A stretch of 64,000 nt of DNA, taken from positions 323,307 through 387,306 of the forward strand of contig CAWFCE010000001.1 of NCBI GenBank assembly GCA_963814275.1. The letters run 5' to 3'. Each line of letters starts with the position of its first letter. The first letter of the stretch is position 1. Below are positions 14,985 through 63,094 of this stretch, in pieces. This DNA comes from Candidatus Parcubacteria bacterium (GTDB lineage Bacteria; Patescibacteriota; Patescibacteriia; Patescibacteriales; UBA12075). Below the pieces are notes generated by a model. The model worked only from the letters and a program-made list of their open reading frames with translations. It was not told where the DNA came from and did no database searches. The position numbers and the translations under genes were made by a program.

Positions 14985-15155
14985 ATGGCCAAACACATCG
15001 TAAAACTTACCAAATCCTCCCGCTACAGCTATTCGGTCGTTCTGCCCAAAGAGATCATTGCTAAATACGGCTGGCGCGAGCGGCAGAAACTAACTGTCGA
15101 AGACAAAGGGCGAGGCGTTGTCGTGATCAAGGACTGGAAGAGCGGTAGCATGTAG
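14985..15155 (+). CDS. AbrB/MazE/SpoVT-family DNA-binding protein (56 aa)
   Basis: VKLTKSSRYSYSVVLPKEI....GW......L.V swapped-hairpin pattern; the ATG lies 7 nt past the TATAAT box, so the mRNA may be leaderless. The track ORF starts at 14967, inside the operator. Confidence 0.65.
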   Translation: MAKHIVKLTKSSRYSYSVVLPKEIIAKYGWRERQKLTVEDKGRGVVVIKDWKSGSM

Positions 15156-15273
15156 CATGGAGCGAGTAGCACATAGCAGGCAACATATGGCTGGTAAACA
15201 ATAATCACAGCTTCTGGCAGGTTTGTTTCTTTTTAGTTGTGAGGGTAAATTATTATAATTAACCGAAACAAAA

Positions 15274-38075: not shown

Positions 38076-38660
38076 ATGAAGGAATACTATGCCGTGCCGG
38101 ACAAAACCGACGAAGAGCTTGTTGCCATGACCCTGGCCGACCAGGAGAATTTTTTATTTCTCGTCAACCGTTACAAAGAGAAGTTATTCCGTTATATCCG
38201 CCGGCTGACCAATATCAGCGCGGAAGACGCCGAAGACATCCTGCAGGAAGTCTTTATGAAGGCTTACGTCAATTTGAACGATTTCGAACAGGACCTCAAA
38301 TTTTCTTCCTGGATCTACCGCATCGCCCATAACCAGGTGATCAGCCATCACCGCAAAATAATGGTCCGGCCGCAGGGGAACGCGGTTAATCTGGAAGATA
38401 GTGAAGTAATGAACATCGCCGCCGACCTGGATACCGAAAAAGACATCGATATCAAGATCCTGCGCCAGAATATCGATATGGTCGCTTCCCGCCTGGAACC
38501 GAAATACCGCGAAGTGCTGATCCTCAGGTATTTTGAGGATAAGAATTACCAGGAAATCTCCGATATCATCAAGCGCCCGCTCGGCACAGTCGCATCCTAT
38601 CTCAATAAGGCCAAGCAGGAGTTTCGTGACGAGATTGAAAAGCAGAAGATTAAATTTTAA
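38076..38660 (+). CDS. RNA polymerase sigma-70 family (ECF-like) sigma factor
   Basis: Region 2 (DILQEVF.KAY.NL..F......F.SWIYRIAHNQ) and region 4 (YREV..LRYFE...YQEISDI...P.GTV). Confidence 0.85.
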   Translation: MKEYYAVPDKTDEELVAMTLADQENFLFLVNRYKEKLFRYIRRLTNISAEDAEDILQEVFMKAYVNLNDFEQDLKFSSWIYRIAHNQVISHHRKIMVRPQGNAVNLEDSEVMNIAADLDTEKDIDIKILRQNIDMVASRLEPKYREVLILRYFEDKNYQEISDIIKRPLGTVASYLNKAKQEFRDEIEKQKIKF

Positions 38661-38705
38661 TAATTGAGTTGGATTATCGGTCAAGAGCGAAAGGATAACC
38701 TTAAA

Positions 38706-38777
38706 GAAATTTGAAATTAGAAATTGGAAATTCGGAATCGGTTTACGCCCAATTTCCAGTTACAAATTTCAAATTTC
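38706..38777. repeat. GAAATT/GGAAATT-word imperfect palindrome
   Basis: gaaatttgaaattagaaattggaaattc ... caatttccagttacaaatttcaaatttc; related copies at 41689-41774, 46008-46062 plus 46197-46216, 55565-55644 and 63044-63092. Confidence 0.8.
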
Positions 38778-38833
38778 ACTCTTCCTTGTTTGTTCGCATA
38801 TTGGGAATAGATGAAGAAACTAATCAAATATAT

Positions 38834-41688: not shown

Positions 41689-41774
41689 GGAAACTTGAAA
41701 CTAGAAACTGGAAATTAGAAATTTTATATCGTTAATCTATCCAATTTCCAGTTACAATTTTCCAGTTACAAAAT
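41689..41774. repeat. GAAACT/GGAAATT-word imperfect palindrome
   Basis: ggaaacttgaaactagaaactggaaattagaaatt ... ccaatttccagttacaattttccagttac. Confidence 0.75.
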
Positions 41775-46002: not shown

Positions 46003-46307
46003 GATATTCGGGAAATTGGAAATTAGAAACTGGAAATTTGGTTTTTTAAATCCAAATTTCGGCTTAAGTAGTTTTTGGACGCTTATTTCCTGAAAATTTG
46101 CCAATCATCCCATGTCGATATCCGATCTATGCCTCGATGATTACCGGGCAAATCCTTTAAAGTTTTAAAAACAACATAAGTCCATATTCGCCATATCTAA
46201 TTTCCGGTTACAAATTAATTTAGATAAACCTAATAAAAATATAATAAAATTTTAATTAAAATATAACCCCGCCGTGATAAGCTCATTAATATTTAAAAAA
46301 AAGAAAA

Positions 46308-50101: not shown

Positions 50102-52078
50102 ATGCCCTTAAGAGGAGTTACAACAGAGAAATTCGAGTTCGATCCGGGGAGCGAAGCATTTCATGGTTTTATCGATAATTTGAATGATTCGGTGGTGGCC
50201 ATGGATATTAGCGGCCGGATACACTATGCCAACTTGAGCGCCCGCCGCTTGCTCGGCTACATGACGCATGAATTGGAGCAGATGCTTTTTTTCGATTTGC
50301 TCCACCCCCGCTCGGCTTCATATTTACGGGAAATTTACGCCAAGATCAAGCGCGGTTCGCCAGTGACCGACCAGAATTTTATTTTCATTTCCAAATCGGG
50401 GGAAGAAATACCGTTATCCGGCAGTATGATCCCGGTTTTGTCGGCTCAGGGCGGTTTGACGGTGTGGGGCATATTTCGTTCAGCGGAGCGCCATCCGGCG
50501 GAGATCGAAGACGTGGAAGCTTTGAAGCGCCGACGTTTCGAATTGGAAGCTTTGAAATCTTTGTCCGACCGCCTGACCAATATTTTCGATATCCGTGAAG
50601 CGGTAAAGACCATCAACAGCTATCTGACCGAAGTCTTGGAATATTCGACAGCCACGTATTTGATCCTCAATCCGGATGATAAACACGATTTCATCTACCT
50701 GGATTATCTCAAGGAGCCGGTTGGGAATAAGTTTATAAAGGAGACGAGGGATAATATAGTCAAGTATTTTAGGGCGGAAAAAGTCGGCGGGCTGGATAGC
50801 GCGCTAAAGCAATTTATCTCGAGCCAGCCCGAGACTTCAGGCTACAAAATTGCGCAGGGAAGCGCGCTAAAACCCCGGTCGCAACTGTTCTTTCCCTTGC
50901 GGCTGGCCGGTGACACATTCGGGGTCATCCATATCGCTTCGGCTAAGCCCGGTATGTACGAGAGTGGGACCAATTGGCTGACCGATGCCATGGTCGTGAC
51001 TTTCGTATTGTTCATTGTCCGCCTGCAGACACTGGTCCGAAGCCAGCGTAGCCGCACGGAATCACTCGTCAAAAGCCTGTCGGACGGTATAATAATGTTC
51101 AATACCAAGATGAATGTCGTCCTGATGAATCCGCCCGGCAGCATATACACGGGATTACCCGCCTCCCGGGCATCGCTGGGGGATTTTTATACCCTTTTTC
51201 CCGATATCAATATGCAGGCAAAGACGACCGAAATGCTGATCTCCGCCAAAACGGTCCATGTCGAAGACGCGCTTTTAAAGGACCGCCATTATGAAATATT
51301 TTTTACTCCGGTCAAAGATAACCAGGGAAAAGTAGTGAGCGGGGCGATAATCCTGCATGATATCACCCAGCTTAAGGAGATCGATGAGATGAAGTCCGAT
51401 TTTGTCTTTATGGCTTCGCATCAGTTGCGCACCCCGCTGACCGGTATCAAATGGTTTACCAAGCTTTTGGAGAAAGCGTTGTTACGCGAAGGAACGATGT
51501 CGCCGCGTGACAAGGAATGTCTGGAACAAATCAATATTTCTAATGACATGATGATCAAGCTGGTAAACGATTTGTTGAATGTATCGCGGATCGAATCCGG
51601 GCGTAAATTCAAAATCGAGAAAACCGCGGTAAAATTCGACGAAATTATCGAACAAATAAAAAAGAACAATATTGTCGTTACAACCACTAACAAAATCAAA
51701 CTGATTGTATCCAGCCAGCCTAAACGTCTGGTATTTTATGCCGATGGCCCCAAGTTCCAGCAAGTTCTCCATAATTTGGTCAACAATGCCGTCAAATATT
51801 CTCCGCCAAAATCAACCGTCAAGGTTGAGGCCGAACAGGGCGCGAATGAAACATTTTTTTCGGTCACGGATAATGGAATCGGAATTCCCAAAAATCAGCA
51901 GAAAAAGATTTTTGAAAAGTTTTTCCGGGCCGATAATGCCGCCTCCCACGGCATGCCCGGCTCCGGTTTGGGGCTATATTTGGCGAAAGCAGTGATCGAA
52001 GCCCATGGCGGCAAACTGAGCTTTAAATCCGCCGAAAACAAAGGCACGACATTTACTTTAACTTTACCGAATAAATAA
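50102..52078 (+). CDS. cytoplasmic sensor histidine kinase (PAS-GAF-PAS-HisKA-HATPase_c)
   Basis: H-box FVFMASHQLRTPL; N, G1 (DNGIGI) and G2 (GSGLGL) boxes; no TM segment. Confidence 0.85.
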   Translation: MPLRGVTTEKFEFDPGSEAFHGFIDNLNDSVVAMDISGRIHYANLSARRLLGYMTHELEQMLFFDLLHPRSASYLREIYAKIKRGSPVTDQNFIFISKSGEEIPLSGSMIPVLSAQGGLTVWGIFRSAERHPAEIEDVEALKRRRFELEALKSLSDRLTNIFDIREAVKTINSYLTEVLEYSTATYLILNPDDKHDFIYLDYLKEPVGNKFIKETRDNIVKYFRAEKVGGLDSALKQFISSQPETSGYKIAQGSALKPRSQLFFPLRLAGDTFGVIHIASAKPGMYESGTNWLTDAMVVTFVLFIVRLQTLVRSQRSRTESLVKSLSDGIIMFNTKMNVVLMNPPGSIYTGLPASRASLGDFYTLFPDINMQAKTTEMLISAKTVHVEDALLKDRHYEIFFTPVKDNQGKVVSGAIILHDITQLKEIDEMKSDFVFMASHQLRTPLTGIKWFTKLLEKALLREGTMSPRDKECLEQINISNDMMIKLVNDLLNVSRIESGRKFKIEKTAVKFDEIIEQIKKNNIVVTTTNKIKLIVSSQPKRLVFYADGPKFQQVLHNLVNNAVKYSPPKSTVKVEAEQGANETFFSVTDNGIGIPKNQQKKIFEKFFRADNAASHGMPGSGLGLYLAKAVIEAHGGKLSFKSAENKGTTFTLTLPNK

Positions 52079-52267
52079 TAGACTATTTAAGTATAGGCCG
52101 ATATCTGTTATAATATAAATAATAAATATTAAGTTAAAACAGTAAAAATTTTTAAACAAGTCATTTAAACTTTAAACTTTTAACCCATAAAATGAGTTTC
52201 TTTGTCCGATTATCCGTAGTTTTTGGCAATAAACTTTTTATATGCGTTATAAGTCTGTTAATATCAT

Positions 52268-52636
52268 ATGGCTAAAAAAATATTAGTCGTAGAAGACGTC
52301 AGTTTTTTGCAAAATGCAATCCGGATATCCCTGGAGGATGCCGGCTATAAGGTTTTGACCGCTTCTGACGGCGAGGAAGGATTGGAGATGGCCCTGGCTA
52401 AAATTCCCGACCTGATCCTTCTGGATATCATGATGCCGAAAATGGACGGAATGACAATGCTTAAGAAACTGCGCCACGACCCCAAGGGGAAGAAAATCCC
52501 GGTCATTATCCTCACTAATATGTCGAGCGAGGAAAAACTGATCGAGGCGCACAAGGAAGGCGTTACGGACTATTTTATAAAAAGCGATTGGGAGATCGAA
52601 GAATTGCCGGATTTGGTTGCCAATAAACTGGGATAA
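52268..52636 (+). CDS. stand-alone response-regulator receiver domain (CheY-like)
   Basis: VVEDV, DLILLDIMMPKMDG, T and K pattern; no output domain. Confidence 0.85.
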   Translation: MAKKILVVEDVSFLQNAIRISLEDAGYKVLTASDGEEGLEMALAKIPDLILLDIMMPKMDGMTMLKKLRHDPKGKKIPVIILTNMSSEEKLIEAHKEGVTDYFIKSDWEIEELPDLVANKLG

Positions 52637-54097: not shown

Positions 54098-54679
54098 ATG
54101 ATCAGTGAGCTTGAGTGCGAGGGGAAAACAGACGAAATATTGGCGCGCCTGGCCTTAGTTGACGAGGATTATTTGGGTTGCCTGATCAGGCGTTACGAAA
54201 AACCCCTGGCGCGCTATATCCGGCGGCTAACCAATGTAGCGGAAGACGAAATTTCCGATATTCTGCAGGAAGTATTCATCAGCGTTTATAAAAACCTGAA
54301 CGATTTCGACCCTGAGCTCAAATTTTCATCATGGATATATCGTATCACCCACAACCAGGTGATCAGCCACCACCGCAAGAAGCAGAGCAGGCCGCAGACG
54401 ATCGAGGTAGACCTAAGCGATGAATCGCTCAATCATCTGGCTTCCGAATTGGATACCGGCCGTGAAGCCGATTTGCGCCTATTGGGCGAGCAAGTCGAGC
54501 GAACGCTTGCCGGAATGGAAGAGAAATACCGCGATGTATTGGTGTTGAAGTTTTTCGAAGAAAAAAGCTACCAGGAGATTAGCGATATTCTCAAGAAGCC
54601 CATGGGCACGATCGCTACGCTCTTGAGCCGAGCCAAAAAGCAGTTCAGAATTATTTACGAAAAACAAGGTAAAAAGTAA
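54098..54679 (+). CDS. RNA polymerase sigma-70 family (ECF-like) sigma factor, paralog of 38076-38660
   Basis: Collinear with the first copy, e.g. DILQEVFISVYKNLNDFDPELKFSSWIYRITHNQVISHHRK. Confidence 0.85.
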   Translation: MISELECEGKTDEILARLALVDEDYLGCLIRRYEKPLARYIRRLTNVAEDEISDILQEVFISVYKNLNDFDPELKFSSWIYRITHNQVISHHRKKQSRPQTIEVDLSDESLNHLASELDTGREADLRLLGEQVERTLAGMEEKYRDVLVLKFFEEKSYQEISDILKKPMGTIATLLSRAKKQFRIIYEKQGKK

Positions 54680-55564: not shown

Positions 55565-55644
55565 TAGAAATTCGAAATTGGAACTGGAAATTTGTTAAAT
55601 TTTATTAAATATTAACAAATTTCCAGTTTTAAATTCCCGGTTTC
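55565..55644. repeat. GAAATT-word palindrome, probably a terminator
   Basis: Perfect 15-bp stem ctggaaatttgttaa (55583-55597) / ttaacaaatttccag (55612-55626) followed by TTTT. Confidence 0.8.
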
Positions 55645-56039
55645 ATAATTTGAAAGAAAAATTATTCTGGCACGTATTATTAATTATAAGGGCCCGTTAA
55701 TTATAATTAATAATTAATTAATTAAAATTCATGAACTATAGTTTAGCGATAGCGGTAAATGCCGCTTTTGCTAATTAGCTCCGAATACTGAATTCGGTGG
55801 GATATTCCGAGAATGGCGCGGCAGTAATGCCGGCCGCATCGATTGCCTGGCAACAAGAGGCATGGGGCGCGGGCACATCGAAAATGTGAATTACCGCCAC
55901 AGTGTTATGAGAGCTTTAAAAATCAAAATCAGTTATTTCCTCCAAATAAAAATCGTCCGCTTCCTGAATAGGTATGCGGGCGGTTTTTGTAATATGGCCT
56001 GGCAGAGTGCTGCCAGACCATTAATCATGTATTCGGTTT

Positions 56040-58313: not shown

Positions 58314-59975
58314 ATGGTCAATCCGATGCTATTGCGTAAAACTGATATGTCCGGTTATACACCGACCCAGAACGCCAAACGGCTGTTTCAGGCGATTTAC
58401 TACGAGCAAAATCCGCCACAGGAGCCGCCCCACGATGTGCCTAAATTGCGCGTATCCGAGATCGTATCCAAAATGGCATTCTATTACGAAAAAATCCGCA
58501 ATACCGTCGAATACAAGGAAGAGCATCTTTTGCGCAAGAATTCGATAGAGCGGATCCTCTGGCGCCAGATTGTGATCGAGGGCGCAATCTCCCGGACACA
58601 CGGCGCCGATATTTCCCGGCACCTGCTGGTCGAACTGATCCGCGCCGGATACCTCCCGAACGATAAGATTCCTGAAGCCAAGGTGGATGAATTCGGCCAG
58701 GTGATAGATAAATACCTGCTCCTCCGGAAATACGGCTTGGAGCGTTTCCGGGGGCTGCAGATCAAGGAAAAGAACGAACTGACCCGCTGGATAATCGCCC
58801 TGCTGGCAAGCGACCTCGAAGAGCGTCTCGGCCGCAGCCAGGTCGACCTGGTTATAATCGATTATATGTACCAGGTGCTCTTAAACAATATCGAATTGCC
58901 GGAAAGCAGTCCCTATGCCCACGACAAGGAGATCCAAATTTTTATCGGTATCTATCGCTCGTATTTGAAATTCGACCGCGACATGCTTGGTTTTATACTC
59001 TTTAAATTCTACAACGCCGATTGGCAGAAAGCTGGCGATGATATGGTCGAAGAAGTGGGTAAGCAGATCATCCCCCTAAAGGAGGCGATCGATAAACAGT
59101 TAGACCATCCTCTGTCCGGCCAGCTGAACCGTATCATTAGCCGTTATACCGTATTTTATGCCATACTAAAAGACGTTATTGAGGAAAATCCGGTAAAAGT
59201 ATATGACAGTTTCAGGCAGGACCCCAAAGCCTTTTCCCGCATGATCAAGCAGGCCGCGGAAAAACGTTATCGTGAAGCGAAGTCGAAGCTCTGGCGGTCA
59301 GCAATCCGCAGTATCATATATATTTTCATTACCAAATCGATTTTTGCGTTCATACTGGAGGTGCCGGCCACCCGCTGGTTCGGCGAAGACCTGAATAGTT
59401 TTTCCCTCCTGGTAAATGTCACTTTTCCGGCCATTCTTTTGTTTTTTATCGTACTGTTCACCCGGATGCCCTCCAGTGCCAATTCAGAGAAGATCGTCGA
59501 GGGGATCCAGCAGGTCGTTTTTGAGGAATTCGAGCGCCAGGATCCTTTCCGCTTGCGTACGCCGGTCAAGCGCAGCGCTTTGATGAATACGATGTTCGGG
59601 CTGGTCTACATGATCACGTTTTTCCTTTCTTTCGGCGGCGTAGTCTGGTTCCTTAACCGGATAAATTTCAGCTTCGTGTCGATCGTGATTTTCTTGTTTT
59701 TTCTGGCTTTGGTCAGCTTTTTTTCGATCAGGATCCGCCGCAGCACCCGCGACCTCTTGATTATGCCGCCCAAGGAAAGCGCCCTGGGCTTCCTGGTGGA
59801 TTTCTTCTATGTCCCGGTAATCCAGGCCGGCAAATGGCTGAGCGAGAATTTTTCCAAGATCAACGTATTTGTATTTGTCCTTGATTTTATCATCGAAGCG
59901 CCGTTCAAGATCTTTATCGCCATTACGGAAGAATGGACGAAGTACGTGAGGGAGAGGAAGGATGAGATCGGGTGA
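58314..59975 (+). CDS. large membrane protein, hypothetical (553 aa)
   Basis: Soluble N-terminal half and a C-terminal half with at least 5 TM spans. Confidence 0.55.
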   Translation: MVNPMLLRKTDMSGYTPTQNAKRLFQAIYYEQNPPQEPPHDVPKLRVSEIVSKMAFYYEKIRNTVEYKEEHLLRKNSIERILWRQIVIEGAISRTHGADISRHLLVELIRAGYLPNDKIPEAKVDEFGQVIDKYLLLRKYGLERFRGLQIKEKNELTRWIIALLASDLEERLGRSQVDLVIIDYMYQVLLNNIELPESSPYAHDKEIQIFIGIYRSYLKFDRDMLGFILFKFYNADWQKAGDDMVEEVGKQIIPLKEAIDKQLDHPLSGQLNRIISRYTVFYAILKDVIEENPVKVYDSFRQDPKAFSRMIKQAAEKRYREAKSKLWRSAIRSIIYIFITKSIFAFILEVPATRWFGEDLNSFSLLVNVTFPAILLFFIVLFTRMPSSANSEKIVEGIQQVVFEEFERQDPFRLRTPVKRSALMNTMFGLVYMITFFLSFGGVVWFLNRINFSFVSIVIFLFFLALVSFFSIRIRRSTRDLLIMPPKESALGFLVDFFYVPVIQAGKWLSENFSKINVFVFVLDFIIEAPFKIFIAITEEWTKYVRERKDEIG

Positions 59976-59980
59976 TGACA

Positions 59981-60018
59981 GCACGTAGCACGTAGCACGT
60001 AGCACGTAGCACGTAGCA
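59981..60018. repeat. tandem heptamer (GCACGTA)x5
   Basis: Starts 6 nt after the stop codon; complementary tgctacgtgctgc at 60104-60116; related gtagcatgtagcatg..gtagcacatagca at 15141-15178. Confidence 0.85.
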
Positions 60019-60188
60019 TCTCTCCTTAATTGTTTTTTTAAAAAAATAGACGAGGTAAAATAACAGACATCTTGTCACGTTATTATTTGTTCTATTTGCT
60101 TCATGCTACGTGCTGCATGATTCGTGAAGAGTGATATGTAGTATTTAAATAAGACAATGTTTTATTATTGCCAAGTTATAAATTATTT

Positions 60189-60604
60189 ATGTCCACGTTA
60201 TATATAGTTGCCACGCCAATCGGGAATCTGGAAGATATTTCCATGAGAGCGCTTCGCCCCGTCATCCGACAGGGCTTCGCTTCGAAATTTTTATGACCAC
60301 ACTTTATATAGTCGCCACGCCTATCGGGAATCTGGAAGATATTTCCATGAGAGCGCTTCGCCCCGTCATCCGACAGGGCTTCGCTTCGAAATTTTTATGA
60401 CCACACTTTATATAGTCGCCACGCCTATCGGGAATCTGGAAGATATTTCCATGAGAGCGCTTCGCCCCGTCATCCGACAGGGCTTCGCTTCGAAATTTTT
60501 ATGACCACACTTTATATAGTCGCCACGCCTATCGGGAATCTGGAAGATATTTCCATGAGAGCGCTTCGCCCCGTCATCCGACAGGGCTTCGCTTCGAAAT
60601 TTTT
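60189..60604 (+). repeat. four tandem 104-bp units duplicating the rsmI start region
   Basis: ATGs at 60189, 60293, 60397 and 60501, with the genuine start at 60605; units 2-4 are identical; unit 1 differs at 6 nt. Confidence 0.9.
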
Positions 60605-61393
60605 ATGACCACACTTTATATAGTCGCCACGCCTATTGGGAATCTGGAAGATATTTCCATGAGAGCGCTTCGCATTCTGGGGGAGGTTGATTTTGTGTTG
60701 TGTGAAGACACCAGGGTGACGCAGAAGCTGCTGTCCCATTACAATATCAAAACGCCGACAATGTCATTTCATCAGCATTCCGACGATATCAAGATCGATC
60801 GTATCTTGAAGCTGTTCGCCGAGGGGAAGAATCTGGCCCTGGTAACGGACGCGGGTACTCCCGGCATCTCCGATCCCGGCGGCAAATTGGTGCAGGCTGT
60901 AATTGAGGAGTCCAATTCGGGGAAATTACAGGAAAAACCGGTCCATGTCGAATCGGTTCCTGGACCATCCGCGGTTACCGCCGCCTTGTCCATTTCCGGG
61001 ATTCCGACCGACAAGTTCATGTTTATGGGCTTCCCCCCGCACAAAAAGGGCCGGATGTCTTTTATTGAGCGCATTGCCTCAAGCGTTTATCCGGTCGTTA
61101 TTTATGAGTCCAAGCATCGTATAATCAAATTTCTCGATGAATTGGCGGCTCTGAACCGCCAGATACTGAAACGCAATAAAGAGATCGACAACGAACTCGA
61201 GCAAGGCGCCTCGGCAGAGCGGAAAGAGCTGTCGGCTTTCAAACGCGCGCCGGTTACTTCGGTCGTGGTATGCCGTGAATTGAGCAAGCTGCACGAAACC
61301 GTTTATCGCGGCGATCTGGATTACATAATCAAACAGATCAAAGAAAATAAAGACGACCAGCGCGGGGAATTTACGGTGATAATCGGGAAATAG
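60605..61393 (+). CDS. rsmI: 16S rRNA (cytidine1402-2'-O)-methyltransferase
   Basis: LYIVATPIGNLEDIS.RAL..L..VD.V.CEDTR, DAGTP.ISDPG, GPSA and RELSKLHE motifs. Confidence 0.9.
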   Translation: MTTLYIVATPIGNLEDISMRALRILGEVDFVLCEDTRVTQKLLSHYNIKTPTMSFHQHSDDIKIDRILKLFAEGKNLALVTDAGTPGISDPGGKLVQAVIEESNSGKLQEKPVHVESVPGPSAVTAALSISGIPTDKFMFMGFPPHKKGRMSFIERIASSVYPVVIYESKHRIIKFLDELAALNRQILKRNKEIDNELEQGASAERKELSAFKRAPVTSVVVCRELSKLHETVYRGDLDYIIKQIKENKDDQRGEFTVIIGK

Positions 61394-63043: not shown

Positions 63044-63094
63044 GATTTGAGATTTGTATAGAAATTAGGAATTATAATTTAGAAATTTTCTAAA

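What the first reader, a model, noticed from the sequence alone, without database searches (positions are those of the whole stretch)
60189..60672. 104-bp unit repeated 4.6x re-creates the rsmI start codon and first 22 codons as a ladder of overlapping mini-ORFs
ATG codons sit at 60189, 60293, 60397, 60501 and 60605, an exact 104-nt period. The last one is the genuine rsmI start. Each unit has 66 nt identical to the rsmI 5' coding sequence (MTTLYIVATPIGNLEDISMRAL) plus 38 nt (cccgtcatccgacagggcttcgcttcgaaattttt). GCTTCGC occurs at both breakpoints, which is a microhomology signature of tandem duplication. Units 2-4 are identical to each other and differ from the real gene by one silent ATC/ATT change (60637). 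Unit 1 differs at 6 nt in its first 30 nt, and 5 of those are silent (S for T is the only amino-acid change). That pattern implies its donor was a functional rsmI allele, for example from another strain. Because 104 is not a multiple of 3, each unit is a closed 35-codon ORF (..RPVIRQGFASKFL*) whose TGA overlaps the next ATG (ATGA). This is the geometry used for translational coupling. The array could therefore be a uORF ladder tuning rsmI, a recent amplification, or an assembly artefact.
Basis: seen in the sequence. Interest (0 to 1): 0.75.

Follow-up and report, generated by a model that had tools for sequence, protein, structure and literature searches.

The report
Repeated decoy starts before rsmI
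The ribosomal-RNA methylase gene rsmI of this tiny-genome (Patescibacteria) bacterium is preceded by four "decoy" copies of its own first 23 codons, each followed by a conserved GC-rich hairpin; the same decoy-hairpin-restart module sits at the same codon in two other distant relatives, so it is a real, recurring and apparently constrained structure, not a one-off duplication or assembly error.

Summary
In detail: five copies of the first 69 nt of rsmI (period 104) are separated by four identical 35-nt spacers, giving four closed 35-codon mini-ORFs whose TGA overlaps the next ATG. It is not a simple tandem duplication, because the spacer is absent from the native upstream. The spacer holds a 20-nt GC-rich hairpin followed by CTTCGCTT. 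The same module (decoy copy, hairpin, restart) lies after the same Arg codon of rsmI in two other Patescibacteria lineages (RsmI 64-76% identical). It is reproduced in 8 and 22 independent contigs, and each carrier lineage sits next to single-copy relatives. Across the three lineages decoy and real copies differ at 21 nt, 20 of them synonymous. The decoy ORF always ends at or 3 nt before the real ATG. In one lineage only the decoy has a Shine-Dalgarno site, and there the hairpin scores as a terminator. Best reading: a translated decoy leader coupled to rsmI, amplified to four units in this genome only. Main rival: a gene-sparing insertion of a small hairpin element. The copy number (418 nt of perfect periodicity) cannot be verified here; at least three copies are required. 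No expression data exist.

The parts
60189..60257 (+). Decoy copy 1 of the rsmI 5' coding sequence (23 codons, MSTLYIVATPIGNLEDISMRALR). It has the native upstream and is the most diverged copy.
   Evidence: 6 nt differences from copies 2-4, all within the first 30 nt, 5 of them silent.
60189..60296 (+). Mini-ORF 1 (35 codons); its TGA overlaps the next ATG (ATGA).
60256..60275 (+). Hairpin 1: GCCCCGTC-ATCC-GACAGGGC (8-pair stem with one C/A mismatch, 4-nt loop). It starts inside the last decoy codon.
   Evidence: Coordinates. Predicted in RNA folds. Homologous hairpins occur in L003, L139, L100 and miaA loci.
60258..60292 (+). Spacer 1 (35 nt: hairpin remainder, then CTTCGCTTCG, then AAATTTTT). 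It is absent from the native upstream of copy 1.
60293..60604 (+). Three identical 104-nt units. Decoy copies are at 60293-60361, 60397-60465 and 60501-60569. Mini-ORFs are at 60293-60400, 60397-60504 and 60501-60608. Hairpins are at 60360-60379, 60464-60483 and 60568-60587. Spacers are at 60362-60396, 60466-60500 and 60570-60604.
   Evidence: There are 0 differences between units 2, 3 and 4; coordinates.
60605..61393 (+). Genuine rsmI (262 aa, TP_methylase family). Its first 69 nt form copy 5, with one silent difference (60637) from copies 2-4.
   Evidence: P0163 is 100% identical and carries PF00590
60219..60636 (.). Block of perfect 104-nt periodicity (418 nt). The number of units inside it cannot be checked without spanning reads.

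Best explanation
This is a conserved 'decoy start, hairpin, restart' leader module in front of rsmI, amplified in this genome. Anatomy (shown): right after the CTTCG of the Arg-23 codon, the reading frame leaves rsmI and runs through a GC-rich 8-bp hairpin followed by CTTCGCTT and a short A/T-rich stretch. A fresh ATG and the same first 21-23 codons follow. The upstream copy is therefore a closed 33-36-codon decoy ORF that runs through the hairpin and stops at the real ATG (ATGA in the window and L003) or 3 nt before it (TAA-ATT-ATG in L139). How it most likely works (inferred): ribosomes start on the decoy, which in L139 is the only start with a Shine-Dalgarno site. They melt the hairpin as they translate through it, terminate at the genuine start and re-initiate, so rsmI expression is tied to translation of the decoy. 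Where the hairpin tail is T-rich (L139), a hairpin left unmelted would also terminate transcription, as in a pyrBI-type attenuator. The decoy is kept translatable: its differences from the real copy are almost all silent. Origin (inferred, unresolved): either one old duplication of the gene start with a templated hairpin insertion, kept in a few lineages and deleted in most, or repeated insertion of the hairpin module at this CTTCG site. In this window the 104-nt unit was then recently multiplied, by unequal recombination or slippage between the identical repeats, from one decoy to four.
For: The same architecture occurs at the same codon in L003 and L139. These lineages have RsmI 66%, 64% and 76% identical to one another. 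The structure is reproduced identically in 8 records and in 10 of 22 contigs inspected, from different samples and assemblers. The hairpin plus CTTCGCTT is about 88-92% conserved between genomes of 32-48% GC in which neutral DNA should be randomised. Cells are 94% paired, with one compensatory C-G to T-A change in L139 and a wobble intermediate in L106. Decoy and real copies differ at 6 + 6 + 9 = 21 nt, of which 20 are synonymous, with no indels or stops. Under a neutral-decoy simulation, P(0 aa changes) = 0.0027 for L003 and 5e-5 for L139, and P(at most 1) = 0.042 for the window. The decoy ORF ends at or 3 nt before the real ATG in all three lineages, although three indels separate the window and L003 spacers. 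An SD (GGAG) precedes only the decoy in L139. No rsmI copy in the window has an SD, although many other genes in the window do. The hairpin plus tail passes the terminator-like scan in L139 and L100. Units 2-4 are identical and one nt from the real copy, which indicates recent amplification.
Against: The module is rare and patchy. Only three lineages were found among 73 related genome loci and 1.84 billion representative proteins. Each carrier sits beside single-copy relatives that show no relics. An old beneficial regulator would be expected to be more widespread. The frame relation is not conserved: periods 104 and 107 are 2 mod 3, but 105 is 0 mod 3. The real AUG is not sequestered by the hairpin, which ends at -18 in an unstructured A/U-rich context, so coupling is not obligatory. 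The hairpin fails the terminator-like scan in the window. Folding energy is only modestly better than shuffles (z about -2). Covariation is not significant (129 of 500 shuffles). The same hairpin occurs in unrelated contexts: the miaA loop in two reading frames, and 3' of a PEP-utilizer gene. That points to a generic or mobile module rather than an rsmI-specific regulator. Why the decoy's amino-acid sequence should matter is unexplained. There are no transcript, ribosome-profiling or peptide data.
Confidence: 0.45

Rival explanations
1. Gene-sparing insertion of a small hairpin element, with no dedicated function. A REP-like or miniature site-specific element inserts after CTTCG in the Arg-23 codon. 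It either brings or generates a replacement 5' end (start region plus first 21-23 codons), so rsmI survives. The decoy is simply the displaced original 5' end. Insertions are young and are soon lost by recombination between the direct repeats. The window's array is a tandem multimer of the 104-nt unit.
For: The site, orientation and hairpin module are the same in three non-sister lineages with single-copy neighbours. The hairpin is flanked by direct CTT(C/G)G...CTTCG repeats in most contexts. The same hairpin is conserved at nucleotide level inside the miaA variable loop in two reading frames, and it also occurs intergenically. An unrelated GC-rich contig (L149) has a 120-nt duplication of the rsmI start flanking about 1 kb of inserted DNA, with homology ending in the same Arg codon. 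If the insertions are young, silent-only differences need no selection.
Against: In every lineage both copies are host-like in codon usage and in lineage-specific residues. They are closest to each other (4-9 nt) rather than to copies in other lineages (8-17 nt). So a travelling surrogate 5' end would have to come from very close relatives each time. If the duplicate is instead made from host DNA, the 9-18% silent-only divergence again requires selection on the decoy. No transposase, integrase or reverse transcriptase lies in window 38-64 kb or in the gene lists of the L003 and L139 loci. The hairpin is low-copy: it occurs nowhere else in the window or in 72 other loci, and the window has no hairpin family. 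There are no phage or plasmid matches. No known mechanism gives an 80-120-bp target duplication.
Confidence: 0.3
2. The module works mainly as a transcription attenuator of the pyrBI/pyrE type. The hairpin is a weak intrinsic terminator lying inside a leader ORF. A ribosome following RNA polymerase closely prevents hairpin formation and allows read-through into rsmI. This overlaps with the best explanation rather than excluding it.
For: The hairpin plus tail meets the terminator consensus in L139 (GTCCCGTCATTCGACGGGAC followed by TTCGCTTTTA) and in L100, where it sits at a convergent gene end. The decoy ORF spans the hairpin in all three lineages. Bare versions of this stem-loop serve as ordinary terminators in unrelated phage contigs.
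Against: In the window and L003 the T-run starts 13-17 nt after the stem, and the scan finds no terminator in the array. Four successive terminators would be expected to silence rsmI. The hairpin also lies inside the miaA coding sequence.
Confidence: 0.15
3. Assembly artefact. The array, or the number of units in it, was produced by the assembler from a repeat or from strain variants.
For: There are 418 nt of perfect 104-nt periodicity, which short reads cannot count. Only one assembly of this organism is on record (P0163, one contig of 457,738 bp). Several in-frame rsmI 5' duplications in other metagenome proteins look like chimeras.
Against: The two-copy module with the same hairpin is reproduced in many independent assemblies of two other organisms. 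Three distinguishable copy types in the window (copy 1, the middle type with C at position 33, the last copy with T at position 33) require at least 3 copies. An allelic 'false duplication' would not place a conserved hairpin between the copies.
Confidence: 0.05
4. The decoy encodes a trans-acting micro-protein: the RsmI N-terminal strand-loop-helix with the TPIGN motif. Alternatively, the hairpin RNA mimics the RsmI contact strand of 16S helix 44 (GCCCGUCA, G1401-A1408) and RsmI binds its own leader, in ErmC-style autoregulation.
For: The decoy peptide is under apparent purifying selection. TPIGN-region residues of RsmI contact C1407/A1408 (PMC13037946). The hairpin 5' arm reads GCCCCGUCA.
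Against: RsmI needs the assembled 30S subunit and does not act on naked rRNA (PMC2831307 and PMC13037946). L003 has an extra A that breaks the CCCGUCA match. The same hairpin occurs in miaA and in intergenic DNA. A 23-residue fragment is unlikely to fold. The similarity to 16S was noticed post hoc and spans only 8 nt.
Confidence: 0.05
5. Plain slipped-strand tandem duplication of native sequence at GCTTCGC microhomology, with no further meaning.
For: Units 2-4 are identical, which fits recent slippage for the amplification step.
Against: The 35-nt spacer is absent from the native upstream. It is a conserved module shared with distant genomes at the same codon. The GCTTCGC pair flanks the hairpin, 23 nt apart.
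Confidence: 0.03

Closest known systems
Translationally coupled leader ORFs / uORFs with overlapping or adjacent stop and start (e.g. the iraD uORF, PMC5574718; RNA-phage coat-lysis UGAUG-type coupling, PMC9955659)
   Same: A short upstream ORF on the same strand ends at or within 3 nt of the downstream start. The downstream start lacks its own SD. The upstream ORF runs through a stable hairpin.
   Different: Here the leader is a paralogue of the gene's own first 21-23 codons and stays synonymous with it. It is repeated up to four times. No experiment shows coupling.
pyrBI / pyrE-type attenuation, in which a leader ORF spans an intrinsic terminator (own knowledge)
   Same: The decoy ORF is read through a GC-rich hairpin followed by a T-containing tail just upstream of the structural gene. 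The hairpin passes a terminator scan in L139 and L100.
   Different: The U-tract is poor or distant in the window and L003. No nucleotide-sensing pause logic is evident. The units are multiple.
REP / RPE small palindromic elements, including in-frame intragenic copies (PMC3733652)
   Same: It is a 20-nt GC-rich palindrome with an 8-bp stem and a 4-nt loop. It occurs both intergenically and inside genes (the miaA loop), and it is conserved at nucleotide rather than peptide level.
   Different: It is low-copy: none occurs elsewhere in 64 kb. It has no terminal GTAG/CGTC tag (CGTC lies inside the stem). No RAYT gene was seen. At rsmI it is associated with an ~80-nt duplication of the target.
Integrating elements that enter the 5' end of a gene and supply a new 5' end (e.g. 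SXT/R391 in prfC; own knowledge)
   Same: Direct repeats of a gene's 5' end flank inserted DNA, and the downstream copy restores an intact gene. L149 shows this with a ~1-kb insert at the same codon.
   Different: The 'insert' is only 35-42 nt and has no recombinase. Both copies are host-like.
Tandem-repeat contingency loci (copy-number change by slippage)
   Same: Identical 104-nt units in tandem should expand and contract readily.
   Different: Every copy number leaves an intact last copy with its own ATG, so there is no on/off frame switch. Variation in copy number has not been observed.

Membership tests
Translationally coupled leader ORF (uORF) | An upstream ORF with a start codon on the same strand, immediately 5' of the gene | tested here: met
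   There are four 35-codon ORFs in the window, a 36-codon ORF in L003 and a 33-codon ORF in L139.
Translationally coupled leader ORF (uORF) | The upstream stop overlaps the downstream start or lies within a few nt of it | tested here: met
   ATGA overlap in the window and L003; TAA-ATT-ATG in L139.
Translationally coupled leader ORF (uORF) | The downstream start depends on upstream translation (no SD of its own, or an occluded start) | tested here: inconclusive
   In L139 the SD precedes only the decoy. In the window no copy has an SD. The real AUG is not sequestered in predicted folds.
Translationally coupled leader ORF (uORF) | Demonstrated translation of the leader and an effect on the gene | not testable with these tools
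   This needs ribosome profiling or reporters. The only indirect support is the silent-only divergence.
Leader-ORF attenuator (pyrBI type) | An intrinsic terminator (GC hairpin immediately followed by a U-tract) inside or just after the leader ORF | tested here: inconclusive
   Met in L139 and for the module in L100. Not met in the window array or, by inspection, in L003.
REP / RPE palindromic repeats | A short (20-40 bp) GC-rich palindrome | tested here: met
   GCCCCGTC-ATNC-GACGGGGC; 94% of cells paired over 9 instances.
REP / RPE palindromic repeats | Present in many copies per genome | tested here: not met
   It occurs only inside the array in 64 kb of window. There is one per locus in L003, L139 and L128, and none in 72 other loci. 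Whole genomes were not available.
REP / RPE palindromic repeats | A conserved GTAG or CGTC tag at one end, and an associated RAYT transposase | tested here: not met
   CGTC lies inside the stem next to the loop, not at an end (definition from PMC3733652). No transposase was found in window 38-64 kb.
Integrative element with a surrogate gene end (attL/attR) | Target repeats flank an insert that encodes, or once encoded, a recombinase; one repeat is host-derived and one is foreign | tested here: not met
   The insert is 35-42 nt with no gene. Both copies are host-like and nearest to each other. There are no phage or plasmid matches.
Simple slipped-strand tandem duplication | The repeat unit is a contiguous stretch of the native sequence | tested here: not met
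   The spacer is absent upstream of copy 1. The criterion holds only for the later amplification of the 104-nt unit.
Programmed translational bypass (T4 gene 60 / byp elements) | Matched take-off and landing codons, a stop right after the take-off codon, and bypass that restores one frame in all homologues | tested here: not met
   CCC, not a stop, follows the Arg codon. A hop to the CGC inside the spacer would be in frame with the next ATG in the window but not in L003 (sequence).
Known RNA families (Rfam 15) | A match to a curated covariance model | tested here: not met
   No hit at gathering threshold in the window, and none at E up to 10 in 59900-60750.

The most novel reading that the evidence does not exclude
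The hairpin module is a new kind of miniature insertion element. It targets CTTCG in the conserved Arg-23 codon of rsmI (and similar sites such as the miaA loop). It regenerates the interrupted gene's start region as part of the insertion, by duplicating 60-120 nt of target including the ATG. The host gene therefore survives behind a translated decoy. A second, less likely novel reading: the decoy/restart junction senses ribosome state, because RsmI methylates the P-site nucleotide C1402, which affects termination and frame maintenance. That would give feedback control of rsmI with a set-point tuned by decoy number.
Probability: 0.15. Interest if true: 0.8.

Novelty: new variant of a known kind. 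Interest (0 to 1): 0.62.

Why it matters
If the decoy leader is functional, it is an unusual way to build a regulatory uORF: copy the gene's own start and keep it synonymous. It also sits in front of an enzyme that modifies the ribosomal P site, in organisms (Patescibacteria) whose gene regulation is almost unknown. If it is instead an insertion footprint, it shows a small hairpin element that enters an essential-type gene at a fixed codon yet leaves it working. That would be a new route by which selfish DNA persists in very small genomes. Either way the silent-only divergence of a 'non-gene' copy in three lineages is a concrete, testable anomaly. The 104-nt ladder also gives a natural copy-number series for testing it.

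Tried and rejected
(1) Exact look-ups of the window's RsmI, MetG and 35-aa mini-ORF found no record, so the source contig could not be fetched.

(2) The viral scan with the spacer pattern gave only a chance hit. In the metagenome scan, 35 of 40 hits were chance matches in GC-rich DNA without the hairpin.

(3) The bare 18-nt hairpin is found as ordinary terminators in unrelated phage contigs, at about the chance rate for 17 specified bases. It is not diagnostic on its own.

(4) Rfam gave nothing. ARAGORN found no tRNA or tmRNA in the window or in the hairpin loci. A remembered resemblance to the tmRNA 5' motif UUCGACGGG was dropped.

(5) DGR-type adenine-specific differences between copies are not seen.

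(6) CRISPR-like array: rejected, because the 'spacers' are identical and are conserved between species.

(7) Translational bypass: rejected, because frame and landing are not conserved.

(8) P0175 (RsmI called from Met19) was suspected of having a disrupted start, but it is an ordinary single copy.

(9) No relic of a decoy or hairpin lies upstream of rsmI in 18 single-copy relatives. This is uninformative, because precise deletion leaves none.

(10) The orthology test of decoys across lineages is too weak to decide (8 vs 14 differences, one shared codon).

(12) Pfam gave nothing for the 250-aa ORF in the L149 insert or for the conserved 553-aa upstream membrane protein.
Full report
**1. What is in the window**

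Tandem Repeats Finder reports one long-period array, 60180-60673, with period 104, 4.7 copies, 97% matches and score 930. Reading the sequence in register gives five copies of the first 69 nt of rsmI. Each runs from the ATG to the CGC of Arg-23, and they start at 60189, 60293, 60397, 60501 and 60605. Four identical 35-nt spacers (CCCGTCATCCGACAGGGCTTCGCTTCGAAATTTTT) separate them. The spacer occurs 4 times against 0 expected by chance.

- Copies 2-4 are identical.
- The last copy starts the genuine 262-aa rsmI (60605-61393) and differs from copies 2-4 by one silent C>T at 60637.
- Copy 1 differs at six positions within its first 30 nt, and five of these are silent.

Because 104 is 2 mod 3, each upstream copy is a closed 35-codon ORF whose TGA overlaps the next ATG.

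Two points change the picture. First, the spacer has no counterpart upstream of copy 1, so the unit is not a contiguous piece of native DNA. Second, the two GCTTCGC heptamers are 23 nt apart and flank the core of a hairpin, not the ends of the 104-nt unit.

**2. Genomic setting**

RsmI relatives place the organism among Falkowbacteria-like Patescibacteria. The best species-level relative is 72% identical, and an identical protein exists on a single 457,738-bp contig. The neighbours are a conserved 553-aa membrane protein upstream and metG and cvpA downstream. This order is shared with many relatives. Window 38-64 kb holds housekeeping and regulatory genes and no transposase, integrase or reverse transcriptase. 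The window has no tRNA and no Rfam match.

**3. The module recurs at the same codon in other lineages**

Among 73 related genome loci, one (L003, 32% GC, RsmI 66% identical) has two copies of the rsmI start separated by CCCAGTCATTCGACGGGGCTTCGCTTAGTAAAAATTTT. Its period is 107, and its 36-codon decoy ORF ends in ATGA. That mini-ORF (P0001) is on record in 8 places from NCBI, JGI and ENA assemblies, all identical over the region.

An exhaustive HMMER search with the window's mini-ORF against 1.84 billion representative proteins found a third example, P0286. It lies on 22 contigs from JGI, ENA and Logan assemblies (L139-L148, identical over the region).

L139 has the following features:
- The decoy is 21 codons and the spacer is 42 nt (CCCGTCATTCGACGGGACTTCGCTTTTAGCAAAAGATAAATT).
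- The period is 105.
- The decoy ORF stops at TAA one codon before the real ATG.
- Only the decoy start has a Shine-Dalgarno site (GGAG).

The three RsmI proteins are 64-76% identical. On a neighbour-joining tree of the upstream protein plus RsmI, the three carriers fall in three subclades, each beside a single-copy lineage (L001, L072, L004). Eighteen single-copy relatives show no relic upstream of rsmI.

The module is therefore real: it is independently assembled many times, with copies that can be told apart. It is also rare and patchy.

**4. The hairpin module**

The spacer begins with a 20-nt hairpin, GCCCCGTC-ATNC-GACGGGGC, whose first two bases are the last two of the Arg codon. CTTCGCTT follows it in all three rsmI lineages.

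A metagenome scan for part of it gave 40 hits. Thirty-five were chance matches in GC-rich DNA that lack the complementary arm. All five in AT-rich CPR-like DNA had the complete hairpin plus CTTCGC. They were:
- L098, which is the same as L003;
- L088 and L100, about 50 nt beyond a convergent PEP-utilizer gene in a region full of other GC hairpins;
- L106 and L112, inside miaA on the opposite strand.

MiaA homologues show that the stretch between GTAKP and H(W/H)LLD is a variable loop, 8 residues in most and 16-31 in others. The hairpin is read there in two different frames, as AKPRRMTGP or as GAPSNDGA. At DNA level the 20-nt core is 90-100% identical between these miaA genes, against 63-90% for the coding flanks. 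The hairpin is therefore conserved as nucleotides, not as peptide.

Over nine instances, 94% of cells are paired. There is only one compensatory double change (C-G to T-A in L139, with a T·G intermediate in L106), and this is not significant against shuffles (129/500).

The bare 18-nt stem-loop also occurs as ordinary terminators in unrelated phage contigs, at roughly the chance rate, so only the extended form defines a family. It is low-copy: it occurs nowhere else in the window or in the 72 other loci, and the window's roughly 11 GC-rich hairpins are all different. With its tail it passes a terminator-like scan in L139 and L100 but not in the window. RNA folds predict it in both species tested, with energies only modestly better than shuffles (z about -2).

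**5. The decoys look constrained**

Decoy and real copies differ at 6 nt in the window (5 silent), 6 nt in L003 (all silent) and 9 nt in L139 (all silent and spread over the whole copy). There are no indels or stops.

I simulated a model in which the decoy drifts freely and the real copy accepts only silent changes. The probability of seeing no amino-acid difference is 0.0027 for L003 and 5e-5 for L139. The probability of at most one is 0.042 for the window.

In the window and L003 all differences lie in the first 33 nt, and the last 36 nt are identical within each genome, although they differ at 5 nt between the genomes (P about 0.009 each). This suggests local homogenisation next to the hairpin. 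L139 does not show the pattern.

Within each genome the two copies are each other's nearest relatives (4-9 nt, against 8-17 nt between genomes). They share lineage-specific residues and codon usage. The window and L003 decoys are closer to each other (8) than the two real copies are (14), and only those two decoys share CCA at codon 10. This is a weak hint of old common ancestry.

**6. How it most likely works**

Shown by the sequence:
- The decoy ORF runs through the hairpin and ends at the genuine start or 3 nt before it in all three lineages, although three indels separate the window and L003 spacers.
- The genuine start has no SD. In L139 the decoy has one.

Inferred: ribosomes translate the decoy, unwind the hairpin, terminate at the rsmI start and re-initiate. 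Where the tail is T-rich, an untranslated hairpin could also terminate transcription (pyrBI-type logic). The three identical units in the window then look like a recent amplification of the 104-nt unit by unequal recombination or slippage.

Weak points:
- The AUG is not sequestered, since the hairpin ends at -18.
- The frame relation is not conserved (104 and 107 versus 105).
- Why the decoy's amino-acid sequence should matter is unexplained.
- The module is rare.

**7. Origin and the main rival**

A plain slippage duplication is excluded for the origin of the module (section 1). Two origins remain.

(a) A single old complex event: a duplication of about -10 to +69 with a templated hairpin insertion at the junction, as in replication template switching. 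It would have been kept in a few lineages and deleted precisely in many.

(b) Recurrent insertion of a small hairpin module at CTTCG, with the gene start duplicated or supplied by the element. The following speak for (b):
- the patchy tree;
- the CTT(C/G)G...CTTCG direct repeats around the hairpin;
- the hairpin's presence in miaA and in intergenic DNA;
- one unrelated GC-rich contig (L149), where a 120-nt repeat (49 nt upstream plus 71 nt of rsmI) flanks about 1 kb of other DNA and homology ends in the same Arg codon. That contig is short and carries a further repeat, so it is only a hint.

The following speak against (b):
- both copies are host-like in every lineage;
- the hairpin is low-copy;
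- no mobility gene was found;
- there are no phage or plasmid matches;
- no known mechanism makes such a long target duplication.

If the insertions are always young, the silent-only pattern needs no selection. If the duplicate is made from host DNA, it does.

**8. Other ideas considered**

The hairpin's 5' arm (GCCCCGUCA) resembles 16S G1401-A1408 (GCCCGUCA), the strand that RsmI pulls out of helix 44. The duplicated peptide contains the TPIGN region that contacts C1407/A1408 (PMC13037946). However, RsmI needs the assembled 30S subunit and not naked RNA (PMC2831307, PMC13037946). L003 breaks the match, and the hairpin occurs in unrelated genes. I rate substrate-mimic autoregulation as unlikely.

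Loss of RsmI changes UGA read-through and frameshifting only about 1.2-1.3-fold in E. coli. A ribosome-state feedback through the stop/start junction is therefore possible but speculative. CRISPR-like, DGR-like, bypass and tmRNA-related readings were rejected (see 'tried and rejected').

**9. Copy number caveat**

The array contains 418 nt of perfect 104-nt periodicity (60219-60636), and only one assembly of this organism is on record. Three distinguishable copy types require at least three copies. The figure of five cannot be verified here.

**10. Verdict**

The finding is real and more interesting than a local duplication. A decoy-start, hairpin and restart module at a fixed codon of rsmI recurs in three distant Patescibacteria lineages, shows signs of constraint on a 'non-gene' copy, and is amplified in this genome. 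Its closest functional analogues are translationally coupled leader ORFs and leader-ORF attenuators. Its closest structural analogue is a REP/RPE-like palindrome, whose defining high copy number it does not meet. I file it as a new variant of a known kind (a leader/uORF device). A substantial rival is a gene-sparing insertion of a small hairpin element. Interest is 0.62.

Noticed in passing
window 59980-60126; also 38705-38778, 41690-41771, 46011-46060, 55570-55645, 63059-63087, 15140-15178: Intergenic regions carry arrays of 3-6 tandem heptamers (e.g. AGCACGT x5.6, GGAAATT/AGAAATT x4, GAAACTN x4.6). A few tens of nt further on lies an inverted copy of each array, so the two form long imperfect hairpins (-18 to -49 kcal/mol). 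Relatives L001, L005, L007, L009, L010 and L123 have different heptamers in the same arrangement just upstream of rsmI. This looks like a clade-wide intergenic signal (terminator, or a binding-site array) that I could not identify.
   Followed up: partly
L106, L112, L124, L125, L128 (miaA loci); proteins P0043-P0048, P0057, P0061: The MiaA loop between GTAKP and H(W/H)LLD varies from 8 to 31 residues in Staskawiczbacteria-like CPR. In several lineages it contains the same 20-nt GC hairpin on the antisense strand, read in two different frames (AKPRRMTGP or GAPSNDGA). So a nucleotide-level element sits inside a tRNA-modification gene.
   Followed up: partly
L149 561-2047 (JGI 3300056868, GC 0.61): In an unrelated GC-rich organism, a 120-nt repeat of the rsmI start region (622-741 and 1711-1830) flanks about 1 kb containing a 250-aa ORF with no Pfam match. 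Homology ends in the same Arg codon as in the CPR cases. The downstream rsmI copy is itself truncated after about 47 residues, and another repeat follows (561-607 and 2002-2047). This may mean the codon is a general insertion hot spot.
   Followed up: partly
proteins P0284, P0285, P0287, P0288: Other metagenome proteins show in-frame duplications of the RsmI N-terminal region. Examples are ATPIGNLEDITLRALR twice in P0285, an 87-residue repeat in P0287, and two diverged N-termini fused in P0288. These may be assembly chimeras across this highly conserved sequence, or further real duplications.
   Followed up: no
L100 870-1300 (= L088, opposite orientation): About 450 nt of non-coding DNA is packed with different GC-rich hairpins (e.g. 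CCCGCCCTAGTGGCGGG, CCCCGCAATCCTGACGGGG, CCCCGCCCCTCGCGAGGAGCGGGG) and ends with the hairpin studied here plus a T-run. There is no Rfam, tRNA or tmRNA match. It is either a REP-cluster-like region or an unknown structured RNA.
   Followed up: partly
L088 2459-2535: There is a partial match to the group II intron D1-D4 model (RF02005, 33 bits, E 1.7e-6), cut off by the contig end about 2.2 kb from the hairpin.
   Followed up: no
window 60177-60183: TATAAAT lies 6 nt upstream of the copy-1 ATG. If it is a -10 box, the rsmI transcript would be leaderless or nearly so, starting at the first decoy. No -35 match was found.
   Followed up: no
window 58314-59975 and its homologues in L001-L014, L139: A conserved ~553-566-aa multi-pass membrane protein with no Pfam family lies immediately upstream of rsmI throughout this clade. 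In L003 its stop codon is only 7 nt from the decoy ATG.
   Followed up: no
window 38076-38657 and 54098-54676: There are two ECF-type sigma-factor genes (Sigma70_r2 + r4_2), each followed by ORFs with no family match. A PAS histidine kinase and response-regulator pair lies at 50102-52633.
   Followed up: no
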